In this document: positions 50,698 to 51,971 of the stretch, piece by piece
How the letters are laid out: the number at the start of each line of letters is the position of its first letter
How positions within the stretch are numbered: the stretch's first letter is position 1
DNA from: an uncultured Gammaproteobacteria bacterium
GTDB taxonomy: Bacteria; Pseudomonadota; Gammaproteobacteria; QNFE01; CAZPSE01
Length of the DNA: 64,000 bases
Assembly: GCA_964589575.1 (NCBI GenBank)
Contig: CAZPSE010000006.1
Coordinates: 81-64,080 of the forward strand
Direction: 5' to 3'
Translations under genes and position numbers: made by a program
The notes under the pieces: generated by a model
The model's input: the letters and a program-made list of their open reading frames with translations, nothing else
Told to the model about the DNA's origin: nothing
The model's database searches: none

Positions 50698-51971
50698 ATG
50701 CTTGATATTAAAATATTACGTTCAGACATTGATAACATAGCCGTAAAACTTAAAACACGTGGTTATAATTTAGATGTAAAAACCTTTGTAAGTCTAGAAA
50801 ATAAAAGGAAAAAACTGCAAGTAGAAACACAAGATTTACAAAATGAAAAAAACGTCAAATCTAAAAGTATTGGCGCAGCCAAAGCCAAAGGCGAAGACAT
50901 TAAACCGTTTTTAGATGAAGTTGCAAAAATGGGTGATGCTTTAAAACAAAATGAGCATAACCTGTCTGACTTACAAAAAGACATTGAACAGTTTTTAATG
51001 GCCATACCCAATGTGCCGCATAAAACCGTACCAACAGGTTTAACCGAAGACGATAATGTAGAAATGGAAACATGGGGTGACAAACCCGTGCAAGATTTTG
51101 ATGTTTTAGACCATGTAGATTTAGGCTCTGAGTTAATGGACTTTGCATCAGCCAGTAAACTCTCTGGTGCGCGCTTTGTGGTGTTACGCTCTCACTTAGC
51201 TAAAATGCACCGCGCGTTAATACAACTAATGCTAGACACCCATACCAACGAACATAACTACAACGAAGTTTATGTACCTTATATAGTCAATAGAGAAAGT
51301 TTAGAAGGAACAGGGCAGTTACCTAAGTTTGAAGAAGACTTATTCAAATAGGTTCAGAGCACGACTTATACCTAATACCCACCGCAGAAGTGCCCGTAAC
51401 CAACTTAGTACGCGACAGCATTATAGAAGAGGACGACTTACCATTAAAATTTGTGGCTCATACGCCCTGTTTTAGATCAGAAGCGGGTGCATACGGTAAA
51501 GATACACGCGGTTTAATCCGCCAACATCAGTTTGAAAAGGTCGAATTGGTGCAAATAGTCAAACCCGAAGATTCTGAACAAGCATTTGAAGAACTTACTC
51601 AACATGCAGAAACCATATTAAAAAAACTAAAATTACCTTATAGAAAATTAAATTTATGTGCGGGCGATATAGGTTTTTCTGCCGCCAGAACCTATGATTT
51701 AGAAGTATGGGTACCGGCACAAAACACTTACCGCGAAATTTCATCATGCAGTCATTTTGAAGACTTTCAGGCACGGCGTATGCAAGCAAGGTTTAGGCGT
51801 AAAGGCGTAAAAAAGCCAGAACTACTGCATACTGTAAACGGTTCTGGCTTGGCAGTAGGGCGCACCCTAGTGGCGATTATGGAAAACTACCAGCAAGCAG
51901 ATGGTAGCATAAACGTGCCAGAGGTTTTACAGCCTTATATGGGTGGCATAAGCAATATAAACGCTGCATGA
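50698..51971 (+). pseudogene. serS: Seryl-tRNA synthetase interrupted by a 1-nt deletion at the AAA run at 51346-51348
   Basis: ORF 50698..51351 matches the SerS N-terminus up to ...[12 protein letters not shown] followed by a stop. The conserved continuation [23 protein letters not shown]... reads in the +2 frame from 51348 through 51971. One extra A restores a ~425-aa SerS. Confidence 0.8.

What the first reader, a model, noticed from the sequence alone, without database searches (positions are those of the whole stretch)
51340..51355. serS split by a 1-nt deletion in a short A-run
An essential aminoacyl-tRNA synthetase is broken into 50698-51351 and a +2-frame continuation to 51971. Homology to SerS is continuous across the break (DLFK|[16 protein letters not shown]) if one A is added to the AAA run at 51346-51348. 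This is either a homopolymer sequencing error or a genuine frameshift tolerated or rescued in a reduced genome.
Basis: seen in the sequence. Interest (0 to 1): 0.6.

Follow-up and report, generated by a model that had tools for sequence, protein, structure and literature searches.

The report
One-base gap splitting serS gene
The gene for the essential enzyme seryl-tRNA synthetase is broken by one missing base in this draft contig, but a second assembly of public reads disagrees at that exact base, so this is most likely a variable or mis-called site and not new biology.

Summary
serS is split at 51346-51351 into a 217-codon 5' part and a 3' part in the -1 frame. Adding one base restores a full-length SerS (554.8 bits, profile 1-418).

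The three closest relatives have TTC/TTT AAA ATx here. The window has TTCAAATAGG.

Nothing indicates programmed recoding:
- There is no slippery heptamer.
- There is no downstream RNA structure (z = -0.46).
- The A-run is only 3 bases long.
- The shift is not conserved in relatives.

SerS shows no decay. It keeps 165 of 167 near-invariant residues, and its lineage shows no rate acceleration.

The window comes from a 66.4-kb NCBI draft contig. Logan contigs from run SRR9822617 match 10.1 kb of the window with 3 SNPs and no indels. One of them starts exactly at the serS lesion and reads AGATAGG, where the window has AAATAGG. That fits an in-frame TTC AAG ATA allele.

lpxD, 24 kb away, carries two further one-base deletions. 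Both are reproduced in Logan, and lpxD also has excess substitutions at conserved sites, so it looks like a real pseudogene.

Most likely the serS break is a defective allele or consensus error at a heterogeneous site. Interest is low. Read mapping would settle it.

The parts
50698..51351 (+). serS 5' segment. It holds the N-terminal coiled-coil arm and the start of the class II catalytic core, and ends ...[17 protein letters not shown].
   Evidence: ORF list. TIGR00414 profile positions 1-221, E = 6.8e-56. tblastn HSP in frame 1.
51343..51352 (+). Lesion site, TTCAAATAGG. One base is missing relative to TTC AAA ATx in relatives, or relative to TTC AAG ATA as suggested by Logan contig L085.
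   Evidence: DNA alignment. L085 starts at 51346 with AGATAGG where the window has AAATAGG.
51348..51971 (+). serS 3' segment in the -1 frame. It starts ATA GGT TCA ... = [16 protein letters not shown]..., and contains motif 2 ([25 protein letters not shown]) and motif 3 ([18 protein letters not shown]).
   Evidence: Translation. TIGR00414 profile positions 224-418, E = 2.4e-104. Alignment to PDB 6h9x.
26721..27284 (+). lpxD segment 1 (frame 0). It is a comparator for how real the one-base deletions in this contig are.
   Evidence: NF002060 profile positions 4-193 of 345. tblastn HSP 26721-27281.
27284..27662 (+). lpxD segment 2 (frame 2). It is entered after a one-base deletion near GACAACCCAACGG (27276-27288) and left at a second deletion in GAAAAAT (27657-27663; A5, inferred A6).
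   Evidence: Logan contig L084 is identical here with 0 gaps.
27661..27720 (+). lpxD segment 3 (frame 1). It encodes [19 protein letters not shown], which matches the C-terminus of relatives.
   Evidence: Translation. Protein alignment A3. tblastn HSP 27658-27708.

Best explanation
The break is an unprogrammed one-base deletion in the deposited draft contig (an NCBI contig of 66,369 bp). It sits at a position where the underlying sequence data are heterogeneous.

An in-frame version (TTC AAG ATA GGT, giving F-K-I-G) most likely exists in the same species, and normal SerS is made from it. The frameshifted string in the window is then one of two things: a defective allele co-occurring in a mixed or polyploid population, or a consensus error made while resolving that variable site.

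It is not a recoding device, and serS is not a decaying gene.

Shown: the lesion itself, the intact state in relatives, the absence of decay and of recoding signals, and the disagreement of an independent assembly at this base.

Inferred: that the 'AG' at the start of the Logan contig belongs to an AAG Lys codon, and that both alleles co-occur in the reads.
For: 1. Relatives at 73-79% amino-acid identity, with the same serS-tsaC-trpS-scpA-scpB synteny, all have an intact 423-aa serS.

2. Logan contigs from run SRR9822617 match the window over 10,098 bp with 3 SNPs and 0 indels. That stretch includes 256 homopolymers of 4 or more bases.

3. The only disagreement that is not a plain SNP is at the serS lesion. 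Contig L085, seen in 2 samples, begins at window position 51346 and reads AGATAGGTTC where the window reads AAATAGGTTC. With about 3 SNPs per 10 kb and contigs of 2-6 kb, a variant base and a contig end both falling within 2 nt of the lesion by chance is roughly a 1-in-1000 event each.

4. The AG is in phase with AAG-ATA, which preserves the conserved K-I.

5. SerS shows no relaxed constraint. It matches 165 of 167 columns that are at least 98% conserved in 120 homologs (controls miss 0-3). Its identity to outgroup L083 is 72.8%, against 73.5% for L081 to L083, the same pattern as in the neighbouring genes.

6. All other genes that have a full-length family model are complete.
Against: - I could not see reads, and the sequencing platform is unknown.
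- Only two bases of the Logan contig lie to the left of the shared sequence. They also fit TTC-AGA-TAG, a SNP inside a still-frameshifted allele.
- The Logan assembly has coverage gaps: 140 nt is unassembled between L085 and L086. The contig end at the lesion could therefore be a coverage drop-out.
- No intact serS of this species was found in the protein collection.
- The two lpxD frameshifts are reproduced exactly in the independent assembly. Genuine frameshifts therefore do occur in this genome, which raises the prior that the serS one is genuine too.
Confidence: 0.6

Rival explanations
1. The frameshift is genuine and fixed in this strain. serS here is a very young pseudogene. Either seryl-tRNA charging is supplied by a second serS elsewhere in the genome, or the genome belongs to a lineage undergoing gene erosion.
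For: The deposited contig carries the frameshift, and the two fragments are on record as separate products of the NCBI contig. lpxD in the same window has two one-base deletions that are reproduced in an independent assembly. lpxD also misses 6 of 54 highly conserved columns, against a control mean of 0.66 and a control maximum of 6, and one of the misses is H275Y. Real frameshift pseudogenes therefore exist in this genome.
Against: SerS is indispensable, and a second copy is rare in Gammaproteobacteria. The window holds no second serS. There is no excess substitution and no rate acceleration in either half of the gene. The independent assembly differs from the window at exactly this base. In an eroding genome, dispensable genes should break first, yet the RND efflux, Mfd, GlnD and PBP1b genes are intact.
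Confidence: 0.25
2. The break is a pure sequencing-chemistry artefact. The platform systematically under-calls short runs, and this created the serS lesion and both lpxD lesions.
For: All three lesions in the window are one-base deletions at or beside A-runs, and none is an insertion. They hit housekeeping genes, which selection would normally protect.
Against: About 660 runs of 5 or more bases in the window are all in frame, whereas the lesions sit in runs of 2 to 5 bases. Two assemblies agree on every run length across 10.1 kb. lpxD also carries excess amino-acid substitutions, which a base-calling artefact cannot explain. Two of the three lesions fall in one 1-kb gene, which is expected for a pseudogene and not for random error.
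Confidence: 0.1
3. The frameshift is corrected during expression. Either the ribosome shifts -1 at UUC-AAA-UAG, with tRNA-Lys slipping while the stop codon waits in the A site, or RNA polymerase adds an A. Either way a full-length SerS would be made from the broken gene.
For: The 0-frame stop lies immediately after an AAA Lys codon, and stop codons promote P-site slippage. Frameshifted essential genes are rescued by transcriptional slippage in Blochmannia and Buchnera (PMC3017870; review PMC5009743). The gene is otherwise undecayed.
Against: There is no X XXY YYZ heptamer; after a -1 slip the Lys tRNA would face CAA. There is no downstream structure: -10.8 kcal/mol, z = -0.46. The A-run is 3 bases long, whereas the slippage tracts described for Blochmannia are long (for example 11 adenines, PMC3017870). 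The frameshift is absent from all relatives, and the site differs in an independent assembly of the same species.
Confidence: 0.03

Closest known systems
Bacterial seryl-tRNA synthetase (SerS, class II; TIGR00414; for example PDB 6h9x)
   Same: The repaired product matches full length (554.8 bits). It has the N-terminal coiled coil, motif 2, motif 3 and the conserved LIPTAEVP stretch, and it sits in the same serS-tsaC-trpS synteny as its relatives.
   Different: The reading frame is interrupted once inside the catalytic core, between GTGQLPKF..DLF and LIPTAEVP. As written, neither fragment could form an active site.
Frameshifts in homopolymer tracts of insect endosymbionts that are corrected by transcriptional slippage (Blochmannia, Buchnera; PMC3017870)
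   Same: A single indel in an otherwise undecayed essential gene.
   Different: Those indels lie in long poly(A) or poly(T) tracts (for example 11 A) and are conserved across populations or species. Here the run is 3 A, the relatives are intact, and an independent assembly of the same species differs at the site.
dnaX-type programmed -1 ribosomal frameshifting (review PMC5009743)
   Same: The shift needed to restore the frame is in the same direction (-1).
   Different: There is no slippery heptamer, no stimulatory structure and no conservation.
Gene-fragmenting indels in draft or metagenome assemblies, and strain heterogeneity (PMC12007338, PMC9262707)
   Same: A one-base indel in a draft contig splits a conserved gene into two adjacent ORFs, and the gene is otherwise perfect.
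   Different: Long homopolymers are not affected. The companion lesions in lpxD are reproduced independently and look biologically real.

Membership tests
SerS (serine--tRNA ligase, TIGR00414 / PF02403 + PF00587) | Full-length match to the equivalog profile above its cut-off (301.65 bits) | tested here: met
   The repaired protein scores 554.8 bits over profile positions 1-418. E = 3e-169 to PDB 6h9x.
SerS (serine--tRNA ligase, TIGR00414 / PF02403 + PF00587) | Class II motifs 2 and 3 and near-invariant residues retained | tested here: met
   FRSEAG...RQHQFEKVE and [12 protein letters not shown] are present. 165 of 167 columns that are at least 98% conserved are matched.
SerS (serine--tRNA ligase, TIGR00414 / PF02403 + PF00587) | One uninterrupted reading frame | tested here: not met
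   There is a stop at 51349-51351, and the 3' part lies in the -1 frame.
Programmed -1 ribosomal frameshift site | Slippery heptamer X XXY YYZ at the shift point | tested here: not met
   The sequence is A UUC AAA UAG. After a -1 slip the tRNAs would face AUU and CAA.
Programmed -1 ribosomal frameshift site | Downstream stimulatory hairpin or pseudoknot | tested here: not met
   The 82 nt downstream fold to -10.8 kcal/mol, z = -0.46; 52 of 200 shuffles fold at least as well.
Programmed -1 ribosomal frameshift site | The frameshift is conserved in orthologues | tested here: not met
   L081, L082 and L083 have intact serS. All of the best 120 listed hits are single proteins of 419-443 aa.
Transcriptional-slippage-rescued frameshift (Blochmannia/Buchnera type) | The indel lies inside a long poly(A) or poly(T) tract | tested here: not met
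   The run is AAA (3 bases) at 51346-51348. The tracts in PMC3017870 are long, for example 11 adenines.
Transcriptional-slippage-rescued frameshift (Blochmannia/Buchnera type) | The same frameshift is kept across populations | tested here: inconclusive
   The only independent assembly breaks at the site and differs there (AGATAGG). No contig spans the site.
Transcriptional-slippage-rescued frameshift (Blochmannia/Buchnera type) | A mixed mRNA pool that includes in-frame transcripts | not testable with these tools
   No transcript data are available.
Decaying pseudogene | Several lesions and/or excess substitutions at conserved sites | tested here: not met
   serS has one lesion, 2 of 167 conserved columns changed (controls 0-3), and no rate acceleration. 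For contrast, lpxD has 2 frameshifts and 6 of 54 conserved columns changed.

The most novel reading that the evidence does not exclude
The frameshifted serS and the doubly frameshifted lpxD are both genuine and abundant alleles in a natural Thiotrichaceae-like population. They would persist because many genome copies per cell (polyploidy), or tightly associated strains, complement one another. Null alleles of indispensable genes could then reach assembly-level frequency. An in-frame AAG allele beside the deletion allele could even be a same-site reversion.
Probability: 0.08. Interest if true: 0.55.

Novelty: not a real feature. Interest (0 to 1): 0.15.

Why it matters
If the lesion were a fixed, expressed frameshift in the only serS of a bacterium, it would imply an unknown rescue mechanism for an indispensable aminoacyl-tRNA synthetase. 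The evidence points the other way. The gene is under normal constraint, no recoding signal exists, and an independent assembly of the same species disagrees at exactly the lesion.

The practical value is for curation. This serS should be treated as intact or uncertain when judging the organism's completeness or metabolism. lpxD in the same contig deserves a separate look as a probably genuine pseudogene.

Tried and rejected
- Finding the source genome or a spanning contig failed. Exact look-ups of serS fragments and neighbouring genes returned nothing.
- Two metagenome contigs pattern scans found nothing.
- A literature search for the run accession found nothing.
- The third protein search used a cut-off of 1e-60. 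That would have hidden short Logan fragments of the serS 5' half, so 'no left-hand contig' is not established.
- A split, two-subunit SerS was rejected. The only start codon in the 3' frame (GTG at 51390) lacks a Shine-Dalgarno sequence and would drop the conserved [14 protein letters not shown] stretch.
- Decoding TAG as a sense codon was rejected, because reading through the stop leaves the frame wrong.
- A generic error model that depends on homopolymer length was rejected. Roughly 660 runs of 5 or more bases are all in frame.
- A second serS inside the window is absent.

Full report
**Observation.** The sequence reads ...GAA GAA GAC TTA TTC AAA TAG GTT CAG.... The ORF 50698-51351 (217 aa) stops at TAG 51349-51351. 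The -1 frame is open from 51333 and encodes [20 protein letters not shown]... through to the stop at 51969-51971. Against NCBIfam TIGR00414 (serS), the first part covers profile positions 1-221 and the second covers 224-418. With one base added after 51348, the product scores 554.8 bits over positions 1-418. It also aligns end to end with solved SerRS structures (6h9x, E = 3e-169). tblastn with a relative's SerS gives two HSPs, in frames 1 and 3, and finds no other serS locus in the window.

**Relatives.** The repaired protein's best matches are 423-aa SerS proteins from metagenome contigs at 79%, 79%, 78% and 73% identity. The best named hits are Cocleimonas, Leucothrix and uncultured Thiotrichaceae at 67-69%. 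Three of these contigs were fetched as L081, L082 and L083. They carry the same gene order, serS-tsaC-trpS, and the two contigs that extend far enough (L081, L083) continue with scpA-scpB; serS is intact in all three. At the break they read TTC AAA ATT or TTT AAA ATA, and the window has a one-column gap there. The lesion is thus a one-base deletion specific to this lineage.

**Context.** The window is about 93% coding, with 57 genes. Every gene that has a full-length family model is complete. These include glyA, nrdR, ribD, dapE, glnD, map, rpsB, tsf, pyrH, frr, uppS, cdsA, dxr, rseP, bamA, fabZ, lpxA, folD, dksA, xseA, guaB, guaA, mrcB, yoaA, tsaB, crcB, mrp subunits, tsaC, trpS, scpA, scpB, mfd and an MTAP-family phosphorylase gene. 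This is not the gene content of a strongly reduced genome.

The one other broken gene is lpxD, which carries two one-base deletions. The first is near GACAACCCAACGG (27276-27288) and shifts frame 0 to frame 2. The second is in GAAAAAT (27657-27663) and shifts frame 2 to frame 1, after which the conserved C-terminus [12 protein letters not shown] is read.

The window has about 660 homopolymers of 5 or more bases, and none of them disrupts a frame.

**Independent data.** The serS and lpxD fragments are on record as products of a single NCBI contig of 66,369 bp, which is evidently the source of the window. Three Logan contigs from SRA run SRR9822617, each seen in two samples, overlap the window:
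- L084 covers 23060-28751 with 2 SNPs and 0 gaps.
- L085 covers 51346-53205.
- L086 covers 53346-55893 and is identical to the window.

Across 10,098 bp and 256 homopolymers of 4 or more bases, the two assemblies show no indel difference. Both lpxD deletions are present in L084.

L085 begins exactly at the serS lesion. It reads AGATAGGTTC where the window reads AAATAGGTTC. The two extra bases are in phase with AAG-ATA-GGT (K-I-G), which is an in-frame allele. With about 3 SNPs per 10 kb and contigs of 2-6 kb, a variant base and a contig end both falling within 2 nt of the lesion are each roughly 1-in-1000 coincidences. They are therefore best explained by the lesion itself being variable in the reads.

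Two caveats apply. Only two bases are informative, and they also fit TTC-AGA-TAG. The Logan assembly also has coverage gaps, for example 140 nt between L085 and L086.

**Constraint.**
- SerS matches 165 of 167 columns that are at least 98% conserved among 120 homologs; controls miss 0-3.
- Its identity to outgroup L083 is 72.8%, against 73.5% for L081 to L083. TsaC, TrpS, ScpA and ScpB show the same small difference, and both halves of SerS behave alike. serS is therefore not decaying.
- LpxD, with both shifts repaired, misses 6 of 54 columns that are at least 95% conserved among 118 homologs. The control mean is 0.66 and the control maximum is 6. One of the misses is H275Y.
- Combined with two reproducible frameshifts, lpxD looks like a genuine pseudogene or a very divergent gene. 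Genuine frameshifts therefore exist in this genome, but the serS lesion has a different signature.

**Recoding.**
- There is no X XXY YYZ heptamer; a -1 slip would place tRNA-Lys on CAA.
- The 82 nt downstream fold no better than shuffled sequence (z = -0.46).
- The A-run is 3 bases long, whereas the transcriptional slippage that rescues endosymbiont genes acts in long tracts such as 11 A (PMC3017870; review PMC5009743).
- The shift is absent from relatives.
- An independently translated 3' fragment is implausible. Its only start (GTG at 51390) has no Shine-Dalgarno sequence, and it would lose the conserved LIPTAE stretch.

**Verdict.**
- Most likely (about 0.6), the frameshifted string is a defective allele or a consensus error at a heterogeneous site in a draft, metagenome-type contig, and the organism has a normal serS.
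- A genuine fixed frameshift remains possible (about 0.25). It would need a second serS elsewhere, or would reflect ongoing gene erosion. The lpxD result is the main argument for it.
- A platform artefact that explains all three lesions is less likely (about 0.1).
- Recoding is very unlikely (about 0.03).
- None of these would be a new kind of system.

Read mapping at 51346-51348 would decide the matter.

Noticed in passing
window 26721-27720 (+): lpxD, in the canonical bamA-skp-lpxD-fabZ-lpxA cluster, is broken by two one-base deletions (about 27284 and about 27660). It also has 6 substitutions at 54 highly conserved columns, including H275Y. Both deletions are identical in Logan contig L084 from SRR9822617. 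It is probably a genuine pseudogene, while lpxA and fabZ beside it are intact.
   Followed up: yes
L084, L085 and L086 against window 23060-28751, 51346-53205 and 53346-55893: The Logan contigs of SRR9822617 differ from the window by only 3 SNPs in 10.1 kb. Two of these are non-synonymous (LpxD G134D, TsaC A96D). One SNP lies 29 nt from a contig end. This suggests strain-level heterogeneity in the sample.
   Followed up: partly
window 1264-5031 (+): The RND efflux permease ORF is 1255 aa. The family profiles (about 1010-1050 positions) end at residue ~1060, which leaves an unexplained C-terminal extension of about 190 aa.
   Followed up: no
window 44226-44534 and 44540-45226 (+): A DUF4040 ORF and an MnhB-like ORF lie 5 nt apart in different frames, and each matches part of the fused profile PRK12507. 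This could be the normal two-gene arrangement or another frameshift. It was not resolved.
   Followed up: no
window 16680-16774 (+): There is an Rfam t44 RNA match (46 bits, gathering score 44) just upstream of rpsB. This is the usual rpsB leader position.
   Followed up: no
window 55781-56425 and 28942-29306: These are the two largest non-coding gaps, at 645 and 365 nt. The first holds tRNA-Arg(ACG) at 55827-55903 (-). lpxB does not follow lpxA as it does in many Gammaproteobacteria. The gaps were not checked for gene remnants.
   Followed up: no
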